DNA from: a virus
Lineage: Duplodnaviria; Heunggongvirae; Uroviricota; Caudoviricetes
Length of the DNA: 13,510 bases
Virus record (IMG/VR): IMGVR_UViG_2671180556_000021
Direction: 5' to 3' (one strand)
The notes under the pieces are model-generated. The model did not search any database. It was not told the origin of the DNA and saw only the letters and a program-made list of their open reading frames with translations. Positions 1 through 13,510 of this stretch are shown one piece after another. The position numbers were made by a program, and so were the translations under genes. Numbering within the stretch: the stretch's first letter is position 1; each line of letters starts with the position of its first letter.

Positions 1-570
1 CGCCACCGCAGGACCGTTATACCCGCATTCATCTCCCCGGTAATCCCACATACAGGTGTTCGCCAGCATGATGCGACCAGGAAACAGCGCCCCGTCCGTC
101 TCCGTCGGTGTTGCCAGCACAAACGAGGCTGTCATGGCCGTCAGCTCTGACATCTGCTCCACCACCCAGCGGTCGCTCAGCTCCTGCTCCGGGTCCGCTT
201 CCGGATTGCCCGCCACAAAATTCACCGCATCCAGAAAACGGGCATACACCCGGCGGCGGACCACCGTGGCCCCCACCAGGCTCTGCAGGTCCTCCGCCAT
301 TCCGGTGACCAGACCGAACAGATTCGACACCGTCAGCGACGGGCGGGCACTGCTACCCTTCCCGTTCATCTCAAAACCGCTGCCGTCAATCGGGTATGCC
401 TGATATTGCCGCCCCTGCCAGGTGACCGCCTCCCCTTTTTCATTCAGCTCATTGCAGAAAAAATACCGCTCACCACCCTGTACCGTCAGGTCGATTTCCC
501 AGAGTACCACCCGCGGTGACTGCTCTGATTTAACCGACTCGTTCAGACTTTCTTCGTGAATATCCTGCAT
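1..570 (-). CDS. L: Tail tip assembly protein gpL, N-terminal 190 codons only; the 3' end runs off the window start
   Basis: Minus-strand ATG at 570..568 shares one nucleotide with the M stop (TGATG). The translation begins MQDIHEESLNE and the frame is still open at coordinate 1 (last residues ...ECGYNGPAVA), matching my recollection of lambda gpL. The plus-strand ORFs 56..403 and 108..308 are antisense to it. Confidence 0.88.
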   Translation of the reverse strand, partial: MQDIHEESLNESVKSEQSPRVVLWEIDLTVQGGERYFFCNELNEKGEAVTWQGRQYQAYPIDGSGFEMNGKGSSARPSLTVSNLFGLVTGMAEDLQSLVGATVVRRRVYARFLDAVNFVAGNPEADPEQELSDRWVVEQMSELTAMTASFVLATPTETDGALFPGRIMLANTCMWDYRGDECGYNGPAVA

Positions 571-899
571 CAGTTCACCACCTGCTTAAACTCGGCACTG
601 AATTCAACCCGCAGCATGCGAACCCGTGATGACCAGGCGGCACAGGTCACCTTTATCTGCCGCCAGGCATAAGGCGGTGTCCACAGAAACGCCTTCCAGC
701 CACCGTGCTCTGCCAGGAACGCTTCCAGATGCCGGGCCTCCTCCCGGGTCACGGAAAGCGTCACACGGTATGTTTTCAGGTCAGCATTCAGCCCTGCCGC
801 CATACGCTGTGAGTACCCGTCACCAAAACGCACTTCACGCACCGACGGCTGCGAGTTCACCTCCATATCCGGCTTCACTTTCCAGCGAAATGTTTTCAT
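570..899 (-). CDS. M: Tail tip assembly protein gpM (109 aa)
   Basis: ORF 570..899 on the minus strand, 109 aa (MKTFRWKVKPDMEV...), same length and sequence as I recall for lambda gpM. Its ATG at 899..897 overlaps the H stop at 898..896 (ATGA). Confidence 0.9.
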   Translation of the reverse strand: MKTFRWKVKPDMEVNSQPSVREVRFGDGYSQRMAAGLNADLKTYRVTLSVTREEARHLEAFLAEHGGWKAFLWTPPYAWRQIKVTCAAWSSRVRMLRVEFSAEFKQVVN

Positions 900-3457
900 C
901 GCCCGCTCCCCGATAACATACCGCCATCACGCAACTGCAGCCGGAGCTCATCCTGCGCCCCCTTGCGGGCCATGTCATACACCGCCTTCATCAGCTGCGG
1001 CCCCGCCTGTCCGTTGATACCGTCGTTCTGAATCACCACGTTGTTGTTCTGCTCAAATCTGATACCCTCTGAACGCCGCATTTGCGCCGGACTTCCGGTG
1101 CCACCGACATAACCACCGGTGGCATAGCCGCGCATCAGCCGGTAAAGATTTCCTACGCCAATCCGGCTGGTTGCCTCCTTCGTGAAGACAAATTCACCAC
1201 GGTGAACAATCCCCGCTGGCTCATATTTGCCGCCGGTTCCCGTAAATCCTCCGGTTGCAAAATGGAATTTCGCCGCAGCGGCCTGAATGGCTGTACCGCC
1301 TGACGCGGATGCGCCGCCACCAACAGCCCCGCCAATGGCGCTGCCGATACTCCCGACAATCCCCACCATTGCCTGCTTAAGCAGAATTTCTGTCATCATG
1401 GACAGCACGGAACGGGTGAAGCTGCGCCAGTTCTGCTCACTGCCGGTCAGCATCGCCGCCATATTCTGTGCAATACCATCAAAGGTCTGCGTGGCTGCAC
1501 TTTTTACCTGCGACATACTGTCCGTGGCGCTCTCTTCCCACTCACTCCAGCCGGACTTCAGGCCTGCCATCCAGTTCCCGCGAAGCTGGTCTTCAGCCGC
1601 CCAGGTCTTTTTCTGCTCTGACATGACGTTATTCAGCGCCAGCGGATTATCGCCATACTGTTCCTTCAGGCGCTGTTCTGTGGCTTCCCGTTCTGCCTGC
1701 CGGTCAGTCAGCCCCCGGCTTTTCGCATCAATGGCGGCCCGTTTTGCCCGTTGCTGCTGTGCGAATTTATCCGCCTGCTGCGCCAGCGCATTCAGGCGCT
1801 CCTGATACGTGACCTTATCGCCAAGTGCAGCCAGCTGGCGTTTGTACTCCAGCGTCTCATCTTTATGCGCCAGCAGGGATTTCTCCTGTGCGGACAGCTG
1901 GCGACGTTGTGCCGCCTCCTCCAGTACCGCGAACTGACTCTCCGCCTTCCACAAATCCCGGCGCTGCTGGCTGATTTTCTCATTTGCTCCGGCATGCTTC
2001 TCCAGCGTCCGGAGTTCAGCCTGAAGCGTCAGCAGGGCAGCATGAGCACTGTCTTCCTGACGATCGCCCGCAGACACCTTCACGCCGGACTGTTTCGGCT
2101 TTTTCAGCGTCGCTTCATAATCCTTTTTCGCCGCCGCCATCAGCGTGTTGTAATCTGCCTGCAGGATTTTCCCGTCTTTCAGTGCCTTGTTCAGTTCTTC
2201 CTGACGGGCGGTATATTTCTCCAGCGGCGTCTGCAGCCGTTCGTAAGCCTTCTGCGCCTCTTCGGTATATTTCAGCCGTGACGCTTCGGTATCGCTCTGC
2301 TGCTGCGCATTTTTGTCCTGTTGAGTCTGCTGCTCAGCCTTCTTTCGGGCGGCTTCAAGCGCAAGACGGGCCTTTTCACGATCATCCCAGTAACGCGCCC
2401 GCGCTTCATCGTTAACAAAATAATCATCCTTGCGCAGATTCCAGATGTCGTCTGCTTTCTTAAACGCAGCCTCTGCCTTAATCAGCATCTCCTGCGCGGT
2501 ATCAGGACGACCAATATCCAGCACCGCATCCCACATGGATTTGAATGCCCGCGCTGTCCTGTCTGCCCAGGTCTCCAGCGTGCCCATGTTCTCTTTCAGG
2601 CGGCGGGTCTGGTCATCAAACCCTTTCGTTGCGGCCTCGTTCGCCGCCTGCAATGCCCCGGCTTCATCGCCGGAACGCTGCAACTGAGCAACATACGCAA
2701 TCTGCTCCGCCGTCACGTTATGGAACTGGCGTGCCATCGCCGTCAGCCCCGACGTCGGGTCTGTGGTCAGCTTCCCGAAGGCTTCAGCGACCTTGTCCAC
2801 CTCCACGCCGGATGCAGAGGAGAAACGCGCCACACTCTGGCTGATGGACGCAATCTGAGCCTCACCGCTTACCCCCGCCTTAACCAGTGCGCTGAGTGAC
2901 TCGCTGGTCTGGTTAAACGTCAGCCCTGCCGCCTGCCCGGCTCTGGACAGGACCAGCATACGATCTGCCGTCAGTCCCGCCTGATTGCCGGAAAGGACCA
3001 GCGTTTTGTTGAAATCGGACAGGGTTGAGTTGCCCTGATACCAGGCATACGCCAGCGCACCGGTCGCCACCGCCAGCGAGGTGGCCCCCACCATCGGCAG
3101 GGTGATCGCACCGGCAAGCCCCCTGAACATGGGGATCATCCCGCCGAAGGAGTCCTTCACCTGCCCCCCCTGTTGCAGCAGGATCAGCCACGGACTTTGC
3201 CCGCCTGCAAGCTGCGTGGCCACGTCGGTGAACTGTGCAGGCAGCATACGCATGGCGGCTTTATACTGCCCGACGGAAATCCCCGCTTTCTGTGCAGCCA
3301 GCGCCTGTCGGCTCAGCGACTGTTCAACGACTGCCGCTGTTTTTTTCGCATCACTTTCCGTACCGGAAAAATGACGCCTGACTCTGGCCATCTGCTCGTC
3401 AAATCTGGCCGCATCCAGACTCAAATCAACGACCAGATCGCCTACCGGTTCAGCCAT
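896..3457 (-). CDS. H: Tail tape measure protein gpH (853 aa)
   Basis: ORF of 853 aa starting MAEPVGDLVVDLSLDAARFDEQMARV, with a long coiled-coil-like central region rich in A/Q/K/E/R and a glycine-rich C-terminal segment. Position immediately downstream of G/T is as in lambda. A strong SD (GGAGGAG) lies upstream of the ATG at 3457. Confidence 0.95.
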   Translation of the reverse strand: MAEPVGDLVVDLSLDAARFDEQMARVRRHFSGTESDAKKTAAVVEQSLSRQALAAQKAGISVGQYKAAMRMLPAQFTDVATQLAGGQSPWLILLQQGGQVKDSFGGMIPMFRGLAGAITLPMVGATSLAVATGALAYAWYQGNSTLSDFNKTLVLSGNQAGLTADRMLVLSRAGQAAGLTFNQTSESLSALVKAGVSGEAQIASISQSVARFSSASGVEVDKVAEAFGKLTTDPTSGLTAMARQFHNVTAEQIAYVAQLQRSGDEAGALQAANEAATKGFDDQTRRLKENMGTLETWADRTARAFKSMWDAVLDIGRPDTAQEMLIKAEAAFKKADDIWNLRKDDYFVNDEARARYWDDREKARLALEAARKKAEQQTQQDKNAQQQSDTEASRLKYTEEAQKAYERLQTPLEKYTARQEELNKALKDGKILQADYNTLMAAAKKDYEATLKKPKQSGVKVSAGDRQEDSAHAALLTLQAELRTLEKHAGANEKISQQRRDLWKAESQFAVLEEAAQRRQLSAQEKSLLAHKDETLEYKRQLAALGDKVTYQERLNALAQQADKFAQQQRAKRAAIDAKSRGLTDRQAEREATEQRLKEQYGDNPLALNNVMSEQKKTWAAEDQLRGNWMAGLKSGWSEWEESATDSMSQVKSAATQTFDGIAQNMAAMLTGSEQNWRSFTRSVLSMMTEILLKQAMVGIVGSIGSAIGGAVGGGASASGGTAIQAAAAKFHFATGGFTGTGGKYEPAGIVHRGEFVFTKEATSRIGVGNLYRLMRGYATGGYVGGTGSPAQMRRSEGIRFEQNNNVVIQNDGINGQAGPQLMKAVYDMARKGAQDELRLQLRDGGMLSGSGR

Positions 3458-4288
3458 ACCGGACTCCTCCTGCGATCCCTTCTGATACTGTCATCAGCAT
3501 TACGTCATCCTCCGTCATGTCCGCCACATCCGGGGAAGCGGGGATAACTTCATTCCCGTCCGGGCCAAAGCGGACACCTCCGGCAAGCCCTGCCGCTTTC
3601 TGCATCAGCACATCATCTTCAGGCTCTTCGTCAGCCTCGCGCCGGTTCAGCAGACTGAAATCCAGCGGATGCATATCCGGATCGCTGAAAAACAGGCTGA
3701 GCACGGTGTACGTCAGCCCGGAAAAGTGCATATCCAGCAGAACATCATGAAAATAATGGGTACTGTAAAAGCGGTGCCAGTCGGCATACTCCGTGGATGA
3801 CATCCCGGCAAGCATGGCACGCCAGTCGGGTCGCCCCATCTCACGCGCCAGTTTCAGGGCAAAACTCAGCTCACCGTCGAACACTTTCCCGCAGAAACAG
3901 GCTCTGCGGGCCCGGCGTCCTCTGTCTGTTCAGGGGCATTATTCACAACAAACTCATACATACCAGACAGCCGGTACACCACGTTTTCAGCATGAGAAAT
4001 TGCCTCCGTGGGCCAGGTGGTAAGCACTTCCTGCTCAATCTGTTTAACGGCTTCATTCATGGACGGCATCTGCGTCTTCTGCGGATGGTTATGCCACAGG
4101 GACATCGCCACCAGAAACGCGCCGGTTCTGATGGCGTCTTCCACAGTAAACTTCCGGTTGCTGTCTGACTCCGCCTGTTCTGCCTGCCGTTTCATCAGGG
4201 CGAGATGCTCAATACGCTGCAGGGCTGACAGTTCAGAAAGCGTGACGGTCACGCCGTTATGTTCAAATGATTCGGTTTTCAGGAACAT
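3450..4288 (-). CDS. T: Tail assembly chaperone gpG-T, made by programmed -1 ribosomal frameshift from the G frame into the T frame (T-frame part 3450..3884)
   Basis: The T-frame ORF 3450..3884 (144 aa, VFDGELSFALKLAREMGRPDWRAML...) has no independent start with an SD. It overlaps the 3' end of G in the -1 frame directly downstream of a G GGA AAG heptamer. Its stop (3452..3450) overlaps the H start. Confidence 0.85.
3866..4288 (-). CDS. G: Tail assembly chaperone gpG (140 aa)
   Basis: ORF 3866..4288, 140 aa (MFLKTESFEHNGVTVTLSELSALQRIEHL...), ending ...AGKCSTVS. ATG at 4288 is preceded by the SD GGAGAG. Lies downstream of V as in lambda. Confidence 0.92.
   Translation of the reverse strand: MFLKTESFEHNGVTVTLSELSALQRIEHLALMKRQAEQAESDSNRKFTVEDAIRTGAFLVAMSLWHNHPQKTQMPSMNEAVKQIEQEVLTTWPTEAISHAENVVYRLSGMYEFVVNNAPEQTEDAGPAEPVSAGKCSTVS
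3884..3890 (-). promoter_or_regulatory. Slippery heptamer G GGA AAG for the G to G-T -1 programmed frameshift
   Basis: The plus strand reads CTTTCCC at 3884..3890, i.e. GGGAAAG on the coding strand, in the G frame as G|GGA|AAG eight codons before the G stop. Reading on in the -1 frame gives VFDGELSF..., the start of the T ORF. Confidence 0.8.
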
Positions 4289-4303
4289 CGCTGACTCTCC
4301 GGA

Positions 4304-5044
4304 TTAACTGTCGGTGACAGTGATTTCTGCAACCGCAGCAAGTTCACCATTACCGGATACAACCGGAATGTTGACCTTACCTGCAGCAACGCCTTTCACG
4401 GTGATGGTCATACCACTGACCGACACGGTGGCTTTTGTTTTATCCGCTGACACCGCACGGAAGCTCTTGTCAGTTGCGCCCTCCGGCTGGAATGCCACGG
4501 TCAGCGTGGTGCTCTGCCCTTTCACCACCGAGGAGCTGGCAGGCGTCACAGTCATACTGGTTGCCGCCGTCACCGTACTGCGATCTTCTGCCATTGACGG
4601 ACGGCCCACATTGGTGACCTTCACCGTACGGGTGATCACTTCCTTCGCCGTCACCGCCTTACCGATACTGCTGACCCAGCCACGGAACACATCGACCGTG
4701 CCGTTCGGGAAGCGGATTTTATAGGCACGGGTATCACCTTCATTAAACCACGCCAGCAGCGCCTGCTGCCCCTGCTCTCCGGGCATCCACGCCAGCGTGA
4801 AGCTGGTATCTCCGGCGGATTTCTGCCCCTGCCCGGTCGCGGTCCAGTCCGCATCTTCATCATCGAGATAACTGTCGTCATAGGACTCAGCGGTCAGTTC
4901 GCCGGGCGTCAGGTCTTTAACTTTAGCCAGACGCGACCAGTCAACGTCTGAAAGCGGGTTCGCATAAGGGTCGCCGCTCCCGTTATAAACCCACAGGGTG
5001 GTCCCGGCACCTTTCACCGGTATTGCTGGATTTGGTACAGGCAT
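4304..5044 (-). CDS. V: Major tail tube protein gpV (246 aa)
   Basis: ATG at 5044..5042 is preceded by the SD GAGGA. Translation [20 protein letters not shown]... runs to 246 aa with a C-terminal Ig-like region (...[18 protein letters not shown]). The ORF-track entry 4304..5074 is a 10-codon upstream over-extension. Confidence 0.93.
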
Positions 5045-5051
5045 ATCGTCC

Positions 5052-5447
5052 TCACATTTCATAGGTAATGACATAAGTCAGATCGGCTGAACTCCACAGG
5101 CCCGCATCATCGTCGCGCCGGTAGTCATAGCCGCTGGCCACCATACTGGTGATCAAATCTGACAGTGCCGGGATATCGCTCATCACCGGATAAATCCGGG
5201 ACTCCATCCACGCATCCAGCTCTGAATCCGGCACCTGAGCAGGCAGGAAAACTTCGATATGCAGCTCCGCCTGCCAGGTATCGCTGTCCAGCTCTTCGCC
5301 CGTGTATTCAGCGCCGGTGAGATAAACGGCAACTGCCGGAAAATCCGCCTCATCAAAAACAGCGGGGCGACCATCAAAAAACGTCGCCCCGGTGTCATGC
5401 TTCTCCAGTGCATCCAGTACGGCTGCACGGAGTTCAGTATGTTTCAT
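5052..5447 (-). CDS. U: Tail terminator protein gpU (131 aa)
   Basis: ORF 5052..5447, 131 aa ([31 protein letters not shown]...). Its ATG overlaps the Z stop (ATGA at 5447..5444). Confidence 0.9.
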
Positions 5448-6022
5448 CGCTTTATTACCATCCTCAGTTGATGCTGCAGCGCATAGCCCAGCTCTTTCGG
5501 AAGACGTTCACGCCGTATCCGCTCAATATTTTGTTTAAACGCCGTGGTCAGCGGCACCGCCATCGGGATTTTCACCACATCAATGGGGTAACGGTTTTTC
5601 CCGGCCACACGCTGCATGACATGCCACCGGCCATTTTTCAGTTGCTGAATAAACGCGCCGGGAATACGACGGTTACCCACCACAAGCACGCTGCCGCCAC
5701 CTTTCAGGGATGAACGCTGCCCCTTTTTACGACGCCTGCGGCGCGAAAGGACAACCCGCGCATTACCCAGCTTGATTACGGGCAAATCCCCCCGGTTAAC
5801 TTTGATTCTGGCCTGCGGATTTTTGACCGTGGCCCTTTTCAGCCTGGCCCTTTCCTTTACCAGTTTCCGGCGTACCTTTGTCTCACGGGCAACCTGTGAC
5901 GCCGACTGCGATATCGCGGATGAAGCAACGCGGTTAATGGCCATTGCGGCGGCACCAGGCACCGCCGTTTTGCTGATACGGCAGAGGTTTTCAATGGCCT
6001 GCTCAAGACCTTTTATGGCCAT
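5444..6022 (-). CDS. Z: Tail completion protein gpZ (192 aa)
   Basis: ORF 5444..6022, 192 aa (MAIKGLEQAIENLCRISKTAVPGAAAMAINR...). The SD AAGGGGGA lies upstream of the ATG at 6022. Sits between FII and U as in lambda. Confidence 0.9.
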   Translation of the reverse strand: MAIKGLEQAIENLCRISKTAVPGAAAMAINRVASSAISQSASQVARETKVRRKLVKERARLKRATVKNPQARIKVNRGDLPVIKLGNARVVLSRRRRRKKGQRSSLKGGGSVLVVGNRRIPGAFIQQLKNGRWHVMQRVAGKNRYPIDVVKIPMAVPLTTAFKQNIERIRRERLPKELGYALQHQLRMVIKR

Positions 6023-6033
6023 ACATCCCCCTT

Positions 6034-6387
6034 TCAGCGGCGACGGTTAACGGCAGGCGGTACGCCCCGCCCAAGCCAGAGATGACAGCTTCCACCATCA
6101 TCCGGCGAAACCCGGTCTATCCAGAAGTTTTCCTCACCGATGGTCAGCGTGTCTCCACGCCGCAGCTGCCGCACATCATCAGTCCGGACAAACAGGGACG
6201 GGCTGGAGCCTTCAACGCGCACGCCCTGTCCGGCATAGCTGATATTTTCAGGGTCATCAAAAACACCACGTATTACTGCGCCGGACTGCTCACCGGATGT
6301 CATGGTGGCTGACGTTCCCATGTACCCGCGTATCGTTTCATCGGCGCGGACAATGGCAGCATCGAACAGGTTATCGAAATCAGCCAC
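6034..6387 (-). CDS. FII: Head-tail connector protein gpFII (117 aa); GTG start as read from the sequence
   Basis: ORF 6034..6387 (first codon GTG, then ADFDNLFDAAIVRADETIRGYMGTS...), with the SD GGGAGG four nt upstream. 117 aa, as I recall for lambda gpFII. Confidence 0.88.
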   Translation of the reverse strand: MADFDNLFDAAIVRADETIRGYMGTSATMTSGEQSGAVIRGVFDDPENISYAGQGVRVEGSSPSLFVRTDDVRQLRRGDTLTIGEENFWIDRVSPDDGGSCHLWLGRGVPPAVNRRR

Positions 6388-6398
6388 AGCGCCTCCCG

Positions 6399-6794
6399 TT
6401 ATTGCATTCTGGCCAGGCCGCGCTCTGTCATTTCGGCTGCCACACCGGCAGAGACACGAAACGCCGTTCCCGGCAGCACAAATGCCACAGGTTCATCCCG
6501 CGTGGCGTGAAGTGCATCGGTATGCAGCGTCACCAGTGCCACAACCGTGACCAGAGCAGCCGTATCAGTCACGGTATCCGTCTGTGCTGATACCACCTCA
6601 TTTTCATGTCCGGTCAGCGCATTTTCCGGGCTGACAGACGAGTCCTGACCGGCTCCGTCATCCGTGTCATCAAGCTCCTCTTCCAGCTCTGCCACACGGA
6701 GCGCCAGTTCTTCTTTCGTCCCCGTCAGGCTGACATCACGGTTCAGTTGCTCACCCAGCGACCGGAGACGGGCAATCAGTTCATCTTTCGTCAT
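6399..6794 (-). CDS. FI: DNA-packaging and head-assembly accessory protein gpFI (131 aa)
   Basis: ATG at 6794..6792 with a strong SD (GGAGGAG). Translation MTKDELIARLRSLGEQLNRDVSLTGTKEELALRVAELEEELDDTDD... The ORF-track entry 6399..6833 begins 13 codons upstream, but that start runs into the E terminus and the intergenic hairpin and has no SD. Confidence 0.85.
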   Translation of the reverse strand: MTKDELIARLRSLGEQLNRDVSLTGTKEELALRVAELEEELDDTDDGAGQDSSVSPENALTGHENEVVSAQTDTVTDTAALVTVVALVTLHTDALHATRDEPVAFVLPGTAFRVSAGVAAEMTERGLARMQ

Positions 6795-6815
6795 GGACTC
6801 CTCCACAGAGAGAAA

Positions 6816-6833
6816 ATGGCCCCGAAGGGCCAT
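6816..6833 (-). promoter_or_regulatory. Intercistronic RNA hairpin between E and FI: 7-bp stem AUGGCCC/GGGCCAU with a UUCG tetraloop, followed by a pyrimidine run
   Basis: The mRNA-sense (minus) strand reads UAA-UC-AUGGCCC-UUCG-GGGCCAU-UUUCUCUCU-GUGGAGGAGUCC-AUG(FI). The two arms are perfectly complementary (plus strand atggccc cgaa gggccat at 6816..6833) and the loop is the classic C(UUCG)G motif. Confidence 0.5.
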
Positions 6834-6835
6834 GA

Positions 6836-7857
6836 TTACGCCAGTTGTACGGACACGAACGCATCAGGGTCAGCCAGCAGCATCAGCGGTGCTGACTGAA
6901 TCATGGTGAACTCACGCGCCGGATCGCCGGTGGTCACCCAGTTTTTCGGGTAGCGGGCAGAGGCGTTAATACCTTCGCGCTGTGCGTCCGCATCCTGAAT
7001 GCAGCCATAGGTGCGCAGACCGCGTGCCTGAGTGTTCCCCAGCACCATCGTGTTGTCCGGCAGGAAGTTCTTTTTGACGTCGTTTTCCACGTACTGTCCG
7101 GAATACACGACGATCGCCGTATCGCCATACATTCCCTTATAGGACACCGCTTCGCCCAGGTCTTTTACCGCTGTCTCCAGCTCGGAATGAGAGCCGCGAC
7201 GGGTATCCAGCTTCTCCCTGACGGCTTTGAAGGAACGGAACAGCGCCCAGCCTTTCGGATCGAACACGATGATATTCACCACACCGCTGGCGTTCAGCGC
7301 GCTTCGATATCGTCGGTCGGGTCATACGTGGACTTGTCACGCTTGCTCCACTCCGTGCCGCCGGACTGCGTGATGTTATTCTCCTCACTGCGGCCCATAT
7401 CCACCTCAACCGGATCGAAGGCTTCACCGGTCATGGTGTATTTGCCCTTAAGCACGGCAGAAACTGCCTGCATCTCTTCGACCTGAGCAATGGCCAGCTC
7501 TTCGTCACGCATGTTCTGCATGATGATGCGACGGCGGCGGTAAGCCGGGTCCGCCAGATTCTGCGGATCTTCATCCGGCAGGCGACGCAGGGTCATCTGC
7601 GGATTCACTTCATGCTTCGGCTTGACATATCCCGGCGTAAATTCAGAGGTGGAGCCGCCACGGGAACGGATAACCTCACCGGAAACAATCGGCGAAACGT
7701 ACAGCGCCATGTTTACCAGTCCCGGAATTTGTGAGAGATAGACTTTCTCCGTAGTGAAGGGATAGCTCTCACGGAAAAAGAGACGCAGAAACAGCGGATC
7801 AAACTTAAATTTCTGCTCATTTGCCGCCAGCAGCTGGGCGGTTGTGTACATCGACAT
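6836..7857 (-). pseudogene. E: Major capsid protein gpE, interrupted by a frameshift (N-terminal frame 7294..7857, C-terminal frame 6836..7321)
   Basis: Starting from the ATG at 7857 (MSMYTTAQLLAANEQKFKFDPLF...), the frame stops at TGA 7296..7294 after ...STYDPTDDIEAR. The rest of the protein (ALNASGVVNIIVFDPKGWALFRSF...VSVQLA, stop 6838..6836) lies in another frame that is open only from 7321 downward. The two pieces total 1022 nt, where one continuous ORF of about 1026 nt (341 aa) is expected. Confidence 0.8.
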
Positions 7858-7870
7858 AAAAAAATCCCGT

Positions 7871-7895
7871 AAAAAAAGCCGCACAGGCGGCCTTT
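7871..7895 (-). terminator. Terminator-like hairpin in the D-E intergenic region: GC stem GCCGC/GCGGC, loop CUGU, then a U7 tract, on the late-mRNA strand
   Basis: The minus-strand RNA reads UAA(D stop)-CUUUACCCUUCAUCACU-AAAGGCCGC-CUGU-GCGGCUUUUUUU-ACGGGAUUUUUUU-AUG(E). Five G-C pairs extend by a G-U and three A-U pairs into the flanking A and U runs. A second U7 run lies directly before the E start codon. Confidence 0.4.
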
Positions 7896-7912
7896 AGTGA
7901 TGAAGGGTAAAG

Positions 7913-8245
7913 TTAAACGATGCTGATTGCCGTTCCGGCAAACGCGGTCCGTTTTTTCGTCTCGTCGCTGGCAGCCTCCGGCCAGAGCACATCCTCATAA
8001 CGGAACGTGCCGGACTTGTAGAACGTCAGCGTGGTGCTGGTCTGGTCAGCAGCAACCGCCAGAATGCCAACGGCAGCACCGTCGGTGGTGCCATCCCACG
8101 CAACCAGCTTACGGGTGGAGGTGTCCAGCATCAGCGGGGTCATTGCAGGCGCTTTCGCACTCAATCCGCCGGGCGCGGTTGCGGTATGAGCCGGGTCACT
8201 GTTGCCCAGCGGCTGGTAATGGGTAAAGGTTTCTTTGCTCGTCAT
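7913..8245 (-). CDS. D: Head decoration protein gpD (110 aa)
   Basis: ATG at 8245..8243 with the SD AAGGGA five nt upstream. Translation [41 protein letters not shown]..., 110 aa. The ORF-track entry 7913..8251 starts two codons too early (MFM...). Confidence 0.9.
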
Positions 8246-8254
8246 AAACATCCC

Positions 8255-8860
8255 TTACACTGGTGTGTTCAGCAAATCGTTAACGGCATCAGATGCCGGG
8301 TTACCTGCAGCCAGCGGTGCCGGTGCCCCCTGCATCAGACGATCCAGCGCAGTGTCACTGCGCGCCTGTGCACTCTGTGGTGCTGCAGCCAGAATGCGGC
8401 GGGCCGTTTCCACGGTCATTCCGGGGGTTTCTGCCAGAACGCGCGCCTGTTCTTCGCGTCCGTGAGCCTCCTCACAGTTGAGGATCCCCATAATGCGGCT
8501 GTTTTCTGCCGCAACCGCTGCGGTGATCTGCGCGTTCACGTCCGGCTGCGCCGCGCTGGCGTTTTCGCCCTCCGTCGCTGGCACCACGTCAGTAACGTCA
8601 GCCTGCGAAGCAGTGGCTGAAACAGTTGTTGATTGAGTCTCTTTGGTCATTCGCCCTCCTGAGAGACGGGATTTACGCGCATCCAGTGCATCACGCATGA
8701 CGGTGATCGCATCGGTGCTGTTAACAAGTTCATCAGCCAGTCCGGCATCAATGGCCTCCTGACCGCTGTACACTGCAGCCTCGGTATCCAGCACAGCCTG
8801 CACAGACAGGCCGGTATATGCCGACACCTTCTGCGCAAACATCTGGCGGGTTGCGTCCAT
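8255..8860 (-). CDS. nu3: Scaffolding protein gpNu3, an in-frame internal initiation product nested in the 3' third of C (201 aa)
   Basis: In-frame ATG at 8860..8858 (MDATRQMFAQKVSAYTGLSVQ...) sharing the C stop at 8257..8255. The 606-nt span matches the lambda C/nu3 nested arrangement. The call rests on homology with lambda, not on an independent sequence signal. Confidence 0.65.
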   Translation of the reverse strand: MDATRQMFAQKVSAYTGLSVQAVLDTEAAVYSGQEAIDAGLADELVNSTDAITVMRDALDARKSRLSGGRMTKETQSTTVSATASQADVTDVVPATEGENASAAQPDVNAQITAAVAAENSRIMGILNCEEAHGREEQARVLAETPGMTVETARRILAAAPQSAQARSDTALDRLMQGAPAPLAAGNPASDAVNDLLNTPV

Positions 8861-9554
8861 CCGGGACTGCAGTGTCTCCCGGACGTCATCCGGAAGATGG
8901 CTGTAGGGATTGCCATCCACCTTATGGCTGCCGCTGTAAATCAGCGTGATTTCCACACCCTGTTTCTCCAGGGCAGCACCGTAATTACTGTGAGCCATCA
9001 TGACGCCGATGGAGCCTGTCCGGGCGGTCTGCGTGACCAGACGCCGGGAGGCGGCACTGGCAAGCAGCTGACCTGCACTGCAGTTCATGTCGTTGGCCAG
9101 CGCCCATACCGGTTTTATGTCACGCACACGGGCGATGATGTCAGCGCAGTCAAATGCCCCCGCCACCATTCCGCCTGGCGTGTCCATATCCAGCAGAATG
9201 CCGTCCACCATCGGGTCACTGGCAGCCTGTTGCAGACGGGCGATAATGCCGTTGTAACCGGTCATCCCCGAATACGGCTGCAGCGCCCGCGTCCGGCTGA
9301 CCAGCGTGCCGGAAACCGGCAGCACGGCGATGCCATTCATGACCTGATAACTGCGGGCCTGTCGTGGTCCGTCATCATTAACGGATAACGCCAGCGTCGC
9401 GGGTGCCTCTCCGGCAGTCAGGCTGTCACCGGACACCGCATCCGTCAGGCGGCTGATCCCAAGCTGGCCTGCAAGCGCACAAAAGAAAACCCGCGCATAG
9501 GCGGGTTCAAGCATCAGCGGCTCATTAAAGGCCATGCTGGCAATATGCGGGAGA

Positions 9555-9574
<20 letters not shown>
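8255..9574 (-). CDS. C: Prohead protease gpC (S49/ClpP-like serine peptidase family), 439 aa, GTG start
   Basis: GTG at 9574..9572 begins VTAELRNLPHIASMAFNEPLMLEPAYARVFF.... The B stop (TAA 9557..9555) lies 20 nt inside it. The ORF-track entry 8255..9706 over-extends upstream through the end of B in another frame. The central region (...DMDTPGGMVAGAFDCADII...) is protease-like. Confidence 0.88.
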
Positions 9575-13255
<3,681 letters not shown>

Positions 13256-13281
<26 letters not shown>

Positions 13282-13510
13282 TCAGCAACCCCGGTATCAG
13301 TTCATCCAGCGCGGCTGCTTTGTTCATGGCTTTGATGATATCCCGTTTCAGGAAATCAACATGTCGGTTTTCCAGTTCCGGAAAACGCCGCTGCACCGAC
13401 AGGGGGATCCCGTCGAGAATACTGGCAATTTCACCTGATGAGTGCCCCGAACCACTGAAATCTGTCGTCAAGTTTGCGCTGGCAACTGGTCTGAGAAAGT
13501 CGAACATCAT
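13256..13510 (-). CDS. nu1: Terminase small subunit gpNu1, C-terminal 84 codons only; the 5' end and cosB/cos lie beyond the window end
   Basis: Frame open from the window edge to TAA at 13258..13256, ending ...[26 protein letters not shown], the C-terminus I recall for lambda gpNu1. The apparent MM start at 13510 is a window-edge artefact. Confidence 0.85.

What the first reader, a model, noticed from the sequence alone, without database searches (positions are those of the whole stretch)
7294..7324. Major capsid gene E is broken by a frameshift, so the phage is defective as sequenced
E is the only gene in an otherwise intact lambda-type late operon that is not a single ORF. The N-terminal frame stops at TGA 7296..7294 (...DPTDDIEAR*), and the C-terminal part (ALNASGVVNIIVFDPKGW...) is in another frame, open only below the stop at 7324..7322. 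The frame relationship requires a net loss of 1 nt mod 3 (a 1- or 4-nt deletion, or a 2-nt insertion) within 7297..7321. As I recall lambda gpE it reads ...TDDIEAYALNASG..., which would make the lesion a 4-nt deletion removing the Tyr codon plus one base at 7298..7302 (window GAAGCGCGCTGAAC). The sequence is not a homopolymer, so a trivial sequencing slip is less likely. Without capsid protein no particles form, so this is either a decaying prophage, a deliberately disabled lysogen, or an assembly error.
Basis: partly seen in the sequence, partly recalled or inferred. Interest (0 to 1): 0.65.

Follow-up and report, generated by a model that had tools for sequence, protein, structure and literature searches.

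The report
Capsid pseudogene with IS621-site scar
The lambda-type capsid gene really is broken by a 4-base deletion, but it lies in a long-dead prophage remnant, and the deletion falls exactly on a recurrent insertion site of the RNA-guided mobile element IS621, so it is most likely a scar left by that element.

Summary
Gene E (minus strand, ATG 7857) stops at TGA 7296..7294. Its C-terminal part continues in another frame, because 4 nt are missing (GAAG[CCTA]CGCG, or equivalently C[CTAC]G, at 7302/7301/7300). Otherwise the gene is identical to the intact E of E. coli F8704-2.

It is not an assembly error. The same junction occurs in 7 independent assemblies, one contig being shared by at least 20 sequencing runs.

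E is not the only lesion. The window is the end of an E. coli contig carrying a remnant prophage at the DLP12 site (argU). The 3' half of intD is fused directly to nu1 codon 123, so cos, lysis, Q, replication and immunity are all gone.

The closest complete genome, Z1323HEC0393, differs by 1-2 SNPs in about 16 kb. It has an IS629-like element at that fusion and an IS621 inside E, inserted at the CT core that the window's deletion removes. Ten other complete genomes carry IS621 at this same E site, and the site is listed in Durrant et al.'s natural IS621 target set.

Best reading (about 0.6): the frameshift is an imprecise IS621 excision scar in an already dead prophage. The pseudogene is ordinary biology. 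A natural scar from a "scarless" bridge recombinase would be new, but it is inferred, not shown.

The parts
7294..7857 (-). E' : N-terminal 187-codon ORF of the major capsid gene, ending at TGA 7296..7294
   Evidence: Translation. Pfam PF03864 on the 187-aa product. E is 98.1% identical to lambda E.
7300..7302 (-). Deletion junction: 4 nt (CCTA or CTAC, E nt 557-560 or 558-561) are missing between 7302|7301 or 7301|7300. The lost bases include the CT core (E nt 558-559) at which IS621 inserts in other genomes.
   Evidence: Alignments. IS621 junctions in Z1323HEC0393.
6836..7301 (-). 'E : C-terminal 466 nt of the capsid gene in the -1 frame relative to E'. It is identical to the F8704-2 allele.
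   Evidence: Pfam PF03864 on the 148-aa GTG ORF.
13438..13510 (+). Internal piece of the DLP12-type integrase gene intD. Only the 3' 580 nt of intD survive in the contig, and 73 nt of them lie in the window.
   Evidence: L005 3830-4422 is 100% identical to annotated intD in many genomes. Native sequence shown. Pfam PF00589 on the remnant.
13256..13437 (-). 'nu1 (nohD) remnant, codons 123-181, fused directly to intD'. The 84-aa ORF 13256..13510 is a chimera.
   Evidence: The lambda match begins at lambda coordinate 555-557.
7913..13281 (-). Intact head and packaging genes with lambda lengths: A (11356..13281), W (11153..11359), B (9555..11156), C/nu3 (8255..9574), D (7913..8245).
   Evidence: The DNA is identical to Z1323HEC0393 over 6,138 nt.
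896..6794 (-). Intact FI (6399..6794), FII (6034..6387), Z (5444..6022), U (5052..5447), V (4304..5044), G (3866..4288), T (3450..3884, made as G-T by a -1 shift at GGGAAAG 3890..3884) and H (896..3457).
1..899 (-). M (570..899) and the 5' part of L (1..570). Window 1..1247 is a divergent tail-module allele at the contig end.

Best explanation
The window is the late-gene block of a dead lambdoid prophage at the E. coli DLP12 site (argU tRNA-Arg, next to sfm/fimZ).

**Shown**
- A deletion runs from the middle of intD to nu1 codon 123. It removed cos and every early, regulatory and lysis gene.
- E is a pseudogene through loss of 4 nt that include the CT core of a recurrent natural IS621 target (ATCGAAGC-CT-ACGCG).
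- In the nearest complete genome, Z1323HEC0393, the same remnant carries an IS629-like element exactly at the intD'/'nu1 junction and an IS621 exactly at that CT core in E.
- Z1323 retains 3 native intD bases (ATA) and the 4 E bases that the window lineage lacks. At the intD junction the Z1323 arrangement must therefore be the ancestral one.

**Inferred**
- The window lineage descends from a Z1323-like ancestor and lost both insertion sequences by nearly precise excision.
- IS629 went together with 3 flanking bases, across a TCA microhomology.
- IS621 went together with its core dinucleotide and 2 neighbouring bases (1-nt microhomology). This would be recombinase-initiated breakage or strand switching, followed by error-prone rejoining, rather than the canonical scarless reversal.
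- The frameshift has no consequence for the host, because the element was already unable to be induced, packaged or lysed out.
For: **The lesion is real and inherited**
- The same junction occurs in 7 independent assemblies. One contig is shared by 20 or more runs.
- The organism is E. coli (protein CTW47847.1).

**Prophage remnant**
- tRNA-Arg(TCT) lies at L005 3751-3827.
- The flank sfmD-fimH-sfmF-fimZ is 100% identical to Z1323HEC0393 and E110019.
- 593 nt of intD at 100% identity are fused to nu1.
- E110019 and F8704-2 have the long form of the same prophage with an intact E.

**Relatedness**
- The sister assembly JHRX01000019.1 has the same two lesions. It differs from Z1323 by 2 mismatches in about 16.5 kb, from E110019 by 4 and from F8704-2 by 5.
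- The window lineage has no private SNP.

**Junctions in Z1323**
- E...GAAGC-CT-[TGTATT..IS621..ACAGTAT]-CT-ACGCG.
- intD side: intD'..CATCA-ATA-[1310-bp IS629-like]-GGTGAAATTG.
- Native intD reads CATCA|ATAAGG. The window state cannot be ancestral to Z1323, and two independent deletions would have to coincide within 3 nt at both ends.

**The E site is a true IS621 target**
- 11 complete genomes carry IS621 at this nucleotide and in this orientation.
- At least 3 of these are different prophage contexts whose E alleles differ by 16-30 SNPs, while the IS copies are identical.
- The site is seq480/481 among the natural targets for the TBL ATCGGGCCTAC in Durrant 2024 Supplementary Data 2.
- It is Levenshtein distance 2 from the WT target ATCAGGCCTAC.

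**A second deletion allele at the same spot**
- A 339-aa E lacking 2 codons (DDIEA[YA]LNASG) exists on 38 contigs.
- None of 10 control 2-codon deletions elsewhere in E exists in the collection.

**Chance**
- Only about 3 of about 1,000 possible placements of a random 4-nt deletion in E would remove the 2-nt core.
Against: - No intermediate was found. Every sample with the IS-free intD'/'nu1 junction also has the 4-nt deletion. It is therefore not shown that the ancestor of the window lineage ever carried IS621 in E.
- Because the site is a hotspot, the IS621 in Z1323 could be a later, private insertion.
- IS621 excision is described as regenerating the original target (PMC13626964; "scarlessly" in PMC11208160).
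- Kusumoto's assay, as summarised in 10.1101/2023.06.07.543989, saw no IS621 excision even with IEE.
- The junction has only 1 nt of microhomology.
- Two independent IS losses are needed in a lineage with zero private SNPs at the locus.
- The DNA of the 6-nt deletion allele could not be retrieved, so its overlap with the core is inferred from the protein only.
Confidence: 0.6

Rival explanations
1. IS621-inflicted damage without a stable insertion. The recombinase-bridge RNA complex attacked this near-cognate target in a cell carrying IS621 elsewhere, cleaved at the CT core, and the aborted reaction was repaired with loss of 4 nt. IS621 never resided in E in this lineage.
For: The site is a recurrent target. 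The deletion removes exactly the core plus 2 nt. No E::IS621 intermediate was found in the lineage.
Against: The nearest relative does have IS621 inserted there. The same lineage demonstrably lost another IS, with loss of flanking bases, 6 kb away, which favours excision. No published evidence for abortive cleavage scars was found.
Confidence: 0.17
2. An ordinary spontaneous 4-nt deletion during neutral decay of a dead prophage, unrelated to IS621. The coincidence with the IS621 core is chance.
For: The remnant is under no selection for function. A relative has an independent nonsense mutation in V. Small indels are common in pseudogenes.
Against: It is the only sequence change in about 15 kb relative to the inferred ancestor. 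It removes the 2-nt core of a documented IS621 site that is occupied in the sister genome, which has a probability of about 0.3% within E. The context is not repetitive and has 1 nt of microhomology, so slippage is not favoured. A second deletion allele exists at the same spot, but 0 of 10 controls elsewhere do.
Confidence: 0.18
3. Sequencing or assembly artefact; the real genome has an intact 341-codon E.
For: None beyond the general possibility. Strain A2 shows what error-driven frameshifts look like: scattered 1-nt indels in C, D and E.
Against: The junction is identical in 7 independent assemblies from different projects and assemblers, one contig being present in 20 or more runs. The context is not a homopolymer.
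Confidence: 0.01
4. A deliberately disabled laboratory lysogen, or a recoding event (programmed -1 frameshift) that still yields full-length capsid protein.
For: A -1 shift in the 8-codon overlap (7297..7321) would in principle restore the frame.
Against: This is a natural E. coli chromosomal locus at argU, about 2% diverged from lambda. No restriction-site logic fits the lost bases. The overlap CCG ACC GAC GAT ATC GAA GCG CGC TGA contains no X XXY YYZ slippery heptamer. The element lacks a late promoter/Q, cos and lysis genes, so expression would be pointless.
Confidence: 0.01

Closest known systems
Bacteriophage lambda gene E (major capsid protein gpE, 341 aa; NC_001416 6135..7160)
   Same: 98.1% DNA identity over the whole gene. 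The flanking gene order nu1-A-W-B-C/nu3-D-E-FI-FII-Z-U-V-G-T-H-M-L is the same, with the same lengths.
   Different: 4 nt missing at E nt 557-561, giving a 187-codon stub plus an out-of-frame C-terminal part. There are 15 further substitutions against lambda. The allele equals that of the E. coli F8704-2/E110019 prophage.
DLP12 cryptic prophage of E. coli K-12 (argU-integrated lambdoid remnant: intD ... nohD)
   Same: Same integration site (tRNA-Arg TCT next to fimZ). Same integrase gene intD (100% over 593 nt). The nu1 homologue is annotated nohD in relatives, and DLP12 marker genes (emrE, ybcK/L/M, ylcI, bor) are present in the long form in E110019. That these are DLP12 marker genes rests on my own knowledge of K-12.
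   Different: The opposite part survives here. The complete late structural operon is kept and everything from mid-intD to mid-nohD is deleted. In K-12 DLP12, as I recall it, early and lysis genes are kept and the structural genes are lost after nohD.
E::IS621 insertions in lambdoid prophages (Z1323HEC0393 and 10 other complete E. coli genomes; target seq480/481 in Durrant et al. 2024 Supplementary Data 2)
   Same: Exactly the same nucleotide position: the CT core at E nt 558-559. In Z1323, the same prophage remnant and the same E allele with 0 differences.
   Different: The window has no IS621. Instead the core and 2 adjacent bases are gone. Canonical IS621 excision should restore GAAGCCTACGCG (PMC13626964).
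Nearly precise IS excision scars of copy-out-paste-in elements (IS629/IS3 family with IEE; ISApl1 loss from Tn6330)
   Same: Loss of the whole IS plus a few flanking bases, with joining at 2-4 bp microhomologies (review 10.1101/2023.06.07.543989). The intD'/'nu1 junction fits this: an IS629-like element plus ATA lost across TCA.
   Different: For IS621 (IS110 family, DEDD/serine recombinase with bridge RNA) no such scars are described, and IEE did not stimulate its excision. The microhomology here is only 1 nt. Presence of iee in the strain was not tested.

Membership tests
Lambda-type major capsid gene E (Pfam PF03864 Phage_cap_E) | Sequence homology to gpE along the whole gene | tested here: met
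   98.1% DNA identity to lambda E. PF03864 hits on both the 187-aa and the 148-aa products.
Lambda-type major capsid gene E (Pfam PF03864 Phage_cap_E) | One continuous ORF of about 341 codons (a functional gene) | tested here: not met
   Stop after codon 187, with the remainder in another frame. This is a pseudogene.
Inducible lambdoid prophage | Complete int/xis, immunity, replication, Q, lysis, cos and nu1 | tested here: not met
   The contig reads argU - intD 3' half - nu1 codons 123-181 - A... with nothing in between.
DLP12-site (argU) lambdoid prophage family | Integration at tRNA-Arg(TCT) beside fimZ, with an intD-type integrase | tested here: met
.
Natural IS621 (IS110 family) target site | CT core with flanks resembling ATCAGGC-CT-AC(GCA) | tested here: met
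   The ancestral sequence is ATCGAAGC-CT-ACGCG. It is Levenshtein distance 2 from the 11-nt WT target. The right flank matches 4 of 5. The bridge RNA of the inserted copy contains ATCGGGCCT...TGCGTAG.
Natural IS621 (IS110 family) target site | Documented IS621 insertions at that nucleotide | tested here: met
   11 complete genomes, with 3 independent contexts examined. Listed in Durrant 2024 Supplementary Data 2.
IS621 excision product | Canonical product: original target restored with one CT core | tested here: not met
   The core and 2 adjacent nt are absent. If this is an excision product it is a non-canonical one.
IS621 excision product | The direct ancestor carried IS621 at the site | tested here: inconclusive
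   The nearest complete genome does (1-2 SNPs apart). However, no intermediate exists within the clade, and the site is a hotspot for independent insertions.
IEE-type microhomology IS excision scar | IS present in the ancestor; IS plus a few flanking bases lost; 2-4 bp microhomology at the joint | tested here: met
   This holds for the IS629-like element at intD'/'nu1: ATA plus the IS lost across TCA, and native intD proves the direction. For IS621 in E only 1 nt of microhomology is present.
IEE-type microhomology IS excision scar | iee gene present in the strain | not testable with these tools
   The whole assemblies GCA_001284525.1 and GCA_001265685.1 cannot be queried here.
Programmed -1 ribosomal frameshift | Slippery heptamer X XXY YYZ in the frame overlap | tested here: not met
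   None in 7297..7321. By contrast, the genuine G-T site GGGAAAG is at 3890..3884.

The most novel reading that the evidence does not exclude
IS621, the prototype "scarless" bridge-RNA recombinase element, sometimes leaves small deletions that remove its CT core when it leaves or attacks a target in nature. The lambda capsid gene E contains a near-cognate IS621 target that is hit repeatedly in E. coli prophages. At this one site there are at least two different deletion alleles: 4 nt in this lineage, and a 2-codon in-frame deletion on 38 other contigs. IS110-family activity would then be a so far unrecognised source of site-specific microdeletions and of prophage capsid-gene inactivation.
Probability: 0.5. 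Interest if true: 0.65.

Novelty: new variant of a known kind. Interest (0 to 1): 0.42.

Why it matters
As a broken capsid gene in a cryptic prophage it is routine, and it changes nothing for the host. The element had already lost cos, nu1, Q, lysis, replication and immunity.

What could matter is the position of the lesion. IS110/IS621 bridge recombinases are being developed as scar-free genome editors, and how they excise (cut-out versus copy-out) is currently debated (PMC13626964; 10.1101/2025.10.25.684509). A naturally fixed microdeletion that removes exactly the recombination core would be the first natural evidence that the reaction can end in a small deletion. This one sits at a site occupied by IS621 in the sister genome, and a second deletion allele exists at the same spot. 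The observation also gives a concrete, testable locus.

The result further shows that lambda's capsid gene carries a natural IS621 off-target that repeatedly inactivates lambdoid prophages.

Tried and rejected
- **Engineered lesion.** This was rejected because the real wild type is GCCTACGCG.
- **Same lesion in strain A2.** Its E spans 1022 nt in the record and is annotated as frameshifted, but the cause is scattered 1-nt indels elsewhere, typical of read errors.
- **Exact junction search.** No hits in the genome, viral or metagenome contig collections. A gapped pattern for any 1-6 nt deletion found only one metagenome contig of 0.68x coverage with a 1-nt loss.
- **Accession search in papers.** Nothing for JHRX01, CYCQ01 or the GCA numbers.
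- **Hypothetical scar alleles.** Exact-protein look-ups of 8 alleles (1-, 2-, 3-, alternative 4-, 5-, 6- and 8-nt deletions and a CT duplication) found only the 6-nt one.
- **Search for intermediates.** I looked for an IS-free intD'/'nu1 junction combined with an intact or IS621-interrupted E, using the chimeric 84-aa ORF. None was found.
- **Literature.** No paper in the held library describes imprecise IS110 excision or IS621 in capsid genes. The preprint [quoted passage not shown] could not be opened.
- **Window-like junction as ancestor of Z1323.** Rejected because Z1323 keeps the native intD bases ATA.
- **Replication slippage.** The only direct repeat (GC...GC) would give a 6-nt loss, not a 4-nt one.
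Full report
**1. The observation**

On the minus strand, E begins at ATG 7857..7855. It reads 187 codons (MSMYTT...DPTDDIEAR) to TGA 7296..7294. The rest of the protein (ALNASGVVNIIVFDPKGW...VSVQLA) is in another frame. That frame is closed upstream by TGA 7324..7322 and ends at TAA 6838..6836.

The 1020-nt query matches 1024 nt of lambda E at 98.1% identity. Alignment with lambda (NC_001416 6135..7160) and with the intact E of E. coli O39:NM F8704-2 shows a single 4-nt gap, GAAG[CCTA]CGCGCTG. This is equally written GAAGC[CTAC]GCGCTG. Against F8704-2 there is no other difference in 1026 nt.

The size and place of the lesion were right. The junction lies at 7302|7301 or 7301|7300. The context is neither a homopolymer nor a tandem repeat.

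**2. Is it real and is it common?**

- An 81-nt query across the junction finds 4,399 E copies in 3,127 of 5,426 complete E. coli genomes. The best full-length matches are 95.3% identical, which means all of them carry the 4 nt.
- The junction 28-mer has no match in the species-representative genomes, IMG/VR or JGI metagenomes.
- The exact 187-aa product is nevertheless encoded on contigs from two NCBI assemblies (GCA_001265685.1 JHRX01000019.1; GCA_001284525.1 CYCQ01000029.1).
- It is also encoded in five Logan run assemblies, and one of those contigs is present in 20 or more samples. All seven contain the identical junction.
- The window is, base for base, the first 13,510 nt of CYCQ01000029.1. 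The source names the protein CTW47847.1, Escherichia coli.

The lesion is therefore a genuine, inherited allele of one E. coli clone. It is not an assembly error and not a laboratory construct.

**3. The surroundings: not an otherwise intact phage**

Beyond the window's right end the contig reads sfmD-fimH-sfmF-fimZ, then tRNA-Arg(TCT). Next come 593 nt that are 100% identical to the 3' part of the DLP12-type integrase gene intD, on the opposite strand. These are joined directly to nu1.

The lambda-like match starts at lambda coordinate 555-557, which is nu1 codon 123 of 181. Window 13438..13510 is thus intD sequence, and the "84-aa Nu1" ORF (13256..13510) is a chimera.

Relative to the closest long form of this prophage (E110019), 15.5 kb are missing. 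The missing stretch includes the 5' half of intD, exo/bet/gam, the repressor region, replication genes, emrE and ybcK-M. It also includes the bor/ylcI region, cos and two thirds of nu1.

All other late genes in the window (A, W, B, C/nu3, D, FI, FII, Z, U, V, G, T, H, M) are single ORFs of lambda length. The element could not be induced, packaged or released even with an intact E. E is one of at least two inactivating lesions.

**4. The nearest relatives give the history**

The chromosomal flank is 100.0% identical to Z1323HEC0393 and E110019, and 99.9% to F8704-2.

| Genome compared with JHRX01000019.1 | Mismatches | Span |
|---|---|---|
| Z1323HEC0393 | 2 | about 16.5 kb |
| E110019 | 4 | about 18.7 kb |
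| F8704-2 | 5 | 13.6 kb |

JHRX01000019.1 carries both lesions. It has no private SNP over the roughly 15 kb of prophage DNA compared across all four genomes.

- F8704-2 and E110019 have the long prophage with an intact E. E110019 already has an IS629-like IS3-family element that replaced the Q-lysis region.
- Z1323HEC0393 has the short form. Its order is intD' - a 1310-bp IS629-like element - 'nu1 - A...D - E' (558 nt) - IS621 - 'E (468 nt) - FI....
- Its junctions read ...CACTCATCA-ATA-[TGAACCGCC...GGCGGTTCA]-GGTGAAATTG and ...GATATCGAAGC-CT-[TGTATTATCC...CATAACAGTAT]-CT-ACGCGCTG.
- The window lineage reads ...CACTCATCA-GGTGAAATTG and ...GATATCGAAG-CGCGCTG.
- Native intD continues CATCA|ATAAGG. 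Z1323 therefore keeps three intD bases that the window lineage lacks.

The window state cannot be the ancestor of the Z1323 state. Two independent 15-kb deletions would have to coincide within 3 nt at one end and 0-2 nt at the other. The window lineage therefore descends from a Z1323-like arrangement. It lost the IS629-like element together with ATA, across a 3-nt TCA repeat formed by the intD flank and the IS terminus. That is the classical signature of nearly precise IS3-family excision at 2-4 bp microhomologies (review of IEE, 10.1101/2023.06.07.543989). Only Z1323 among complete genomes has the IS-'nu1 junction, and none has the IS-free one.

**5. The E lesion sits on an IS621 recombination core**

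IS621 inserts at a CT core dinucleotide, which ends up on both sides of the element. The excised circle joins ACAGTAT-CT-TGTAT, and these are exactly the ends seen here (PMC13626964).

In Z1323 the core is E nt 558-559. The window's missing bases are nt 557-560 or 558-561, which is the core plus two neighbours.

The site is a genuine, recurrent target.
- Eleven complete genomes have IS621 at this nucleotide and in this orientation.
- Three that I examined lie in different prophage contexts. Their E alleles differ by 16-30 SNPs, while the IS copies are identical.
- The 50-mers GACCCGACCGACGATATCGAAGCCTACGCGCTGAACGCCAGCGG(C/T)GTGGT are listed as natural targets of elements with the target-binding loop ATCGGGCCTAC (seq480/481). 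The source is Supplementary Data 2 of Durrant et al. 2024.
- The site is Levenshtein distance 2 from the wild-type 11-nt target ATCAGGCCTAC. Its right flank, ACGCG, matches ACGCA in 4 of 5 positions.
- With the IS removed, Z1323's E equals F8704-2's E (0 differences), which is the window's E plus 4 nt.

**6. A second deletion allele at the same spot**

I generated the products of hypothetical small deletions overlapping the core and looked them up by exact sequence.
- The frameshift variants were absent.
- The in-frame 2-codon deletion (...DDIEA[YA]LNASG..., 339 aa) exists. It is P0016 (EEV8114842.1 and others) and occurs on 38 contigs.
- Ten control 2-codon deletions spaced along the same allele were all absent.
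- I could not obtain the DNA of that allele. Its overlap with the core is therefore inferred from the protein.
- The E'::IS621 read-through product (228 aa) and the 186-aa contig-end fragment are also in the collection. This is consistent with further IS621-interrupted copies in draft genomes.

**7. Mechanism**

Shown:
- the lesion, the prophage truncation and the ancestral presence of the IS629-like element;
- the identity of the deleted bases with an IS621 core;
- occupancy of that core in the sister genome.

Inferred: IS621 was present in E in the ancestor of the window lineage, or entered it later, and left imprecisely.

Canonical excision regenerates the target (PMC13626964; "scarlessly" in PMC11208160). 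No paper in the held library mentions scars, and IEE did not stimulate IS621 excision in Kusumoto's assay. The proposed event is therefore non-canonical. It would involve cleavage or strand exchange at the cores that is not completed, followed by trimming and rejoining with 1 nt of microhomology. Alternatively it would be a strand switch during a copy-out step, a pathway proposed for another IS110 element in 10.1101/2025.10.25.684509.

Alternatives are an abortive attack on the empty target, or a chance deletion. Only about 3 of about 1,000 placements of a 4-nt deletion in E remove the core. It is also the only change in about 15 kb. Chance is therefore unlikely but not excluded.

No intermediate genotype exists in the accessible data. 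Every sample with the IS-free intD'/'nu1 junction also has the 4-nt deletion.

**8. Rejected readings**

- Assembly error is excluded by the seven assemblies.
- An engineered lysogen is excluded because this is a natural argU locus about 2% diverged from lambda.
- A programmed frameshift is excluded because there is no slippery heptamer in 7297..7321. The true G-T site, GGGAAAG, is at 3890..3884.
- Slippage is not supported because the only flanking repeat, GC...GC, predicts a 6-nt loss.

**9. Verdict**

The phage was already dead for bigger reasons, and the interesting point is where the 4 nt are missing.

As a pseudogene it is ordinary. As a candidate natural footprint of a bridge-RNA recombinase it is a new variant of a known kind (transposon excision scars). 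It is supported by exact positional coincidence, a sister genome with the element in place, a parallel IS loss 6 kb away and a second deletion allele. It is not proven.

Noticed in passing
window 1..1247: The last 1.25 kb of the contig (3' end of H, M, 5' part of L) is only about 80% identical to the sister assembly JHRX01000019.1, Z1323, E110019 and lambda. It is 92% identical to the tail module of an O103 RM8385 prophage. This is either a recombinant tail module or a contig-end chimera between paralogous prophages.
   Followed up: partly
window 13256..13510 (minus strand): The ORF that looks like a short Nu1 (84 aa, Pfam Phage_Nu1) is a fusion. Its first 73 nt are antisense intD and the rest is nu1/nohD codons 123-181. 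The window edge coincides with its ATG.
   Followed up: yes
window 3884..3890 (minus strand): The conserved GGGAAAG slippery heptamer of the lambda gpG/gpG-T programmed -1 frameshift lies at the G/T overlap. This is a genuine recoding site in the same operon.
   Followed up: partly
protein P0016 (EEV8114842.1, EFD0841251.1, EFF0664775.1, EFG1373203.1); corresponds to window about 7297..7305: A 339-aa E allele lacking two codons (DDIEA[YA]LNASG) at exactly the same site exists on 38 contigs. Ten control 2-codon deletions elsewhere in E do not exist in the collection. Its DNA could not be fetched.
   Followed up: partly
L011 (NZ_CP148357.1 4708827-4727932), L013, L014: IS621 interrupts the lambdoid capsid gene at the same CT core in 11 complete E. 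coli genomes, in at least three unrelated prophage contexts. Lambda E therefore contains a natural IS621 off-target hotspot. It is present in Durrant et al.'s target list, and no paper in the held library links IS621 to prophage capsid genes.
   Followed up: yes
L012 (E110019) 15321..16630; L011 (Z1323) 1579..2888: The same 1310-bp IS629-like element (2 differences between the copies) sits at progressively larger deletions of the argU prophage: ybcM-IS-'bor in E110019, intD'-IS-'nohD in Z1323. Neither copy has target duplications. This looks like stepwise IS-mediated erosion of the prophage.
   Followed up: partly
L008 (Logan ERR13098625) 935..992 and 1770; corresponds to window 8387..8444 and 7609: One run carries the 4-nt deletion on a background with 5 SNPs: 4 clustered at the 3' end of C and 1 in E. 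These match other lambdoid alleles. The cause is a gene-conversion patch from another resident prophage or paralogue mixing in the assembly.
   Followed up: partly
L015 984..1014 (human gut metagenome contig OQIG01008636, coverage 0.68): A 1-nt deletion at the same spot (GAAGC-TACGCG). At that coverage it is probably a read error.
   Followed up: partly
L011 12563..13303 (Z1323 gene V): The sister genome has a private nonsense mutation in the major tail gene V. This is independent evidence that the remnant is decaying neutrally.
   Followed up: partly
L003 (E. coli A2, NZ_CP028772.1) 5293..8022: C, D and E are all annotated as frameshifted through scattered 1-nt indels. This is a pattern of assembly errors and a useful contrast to the clean 4-nt lesion here.
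   Followed up: partly
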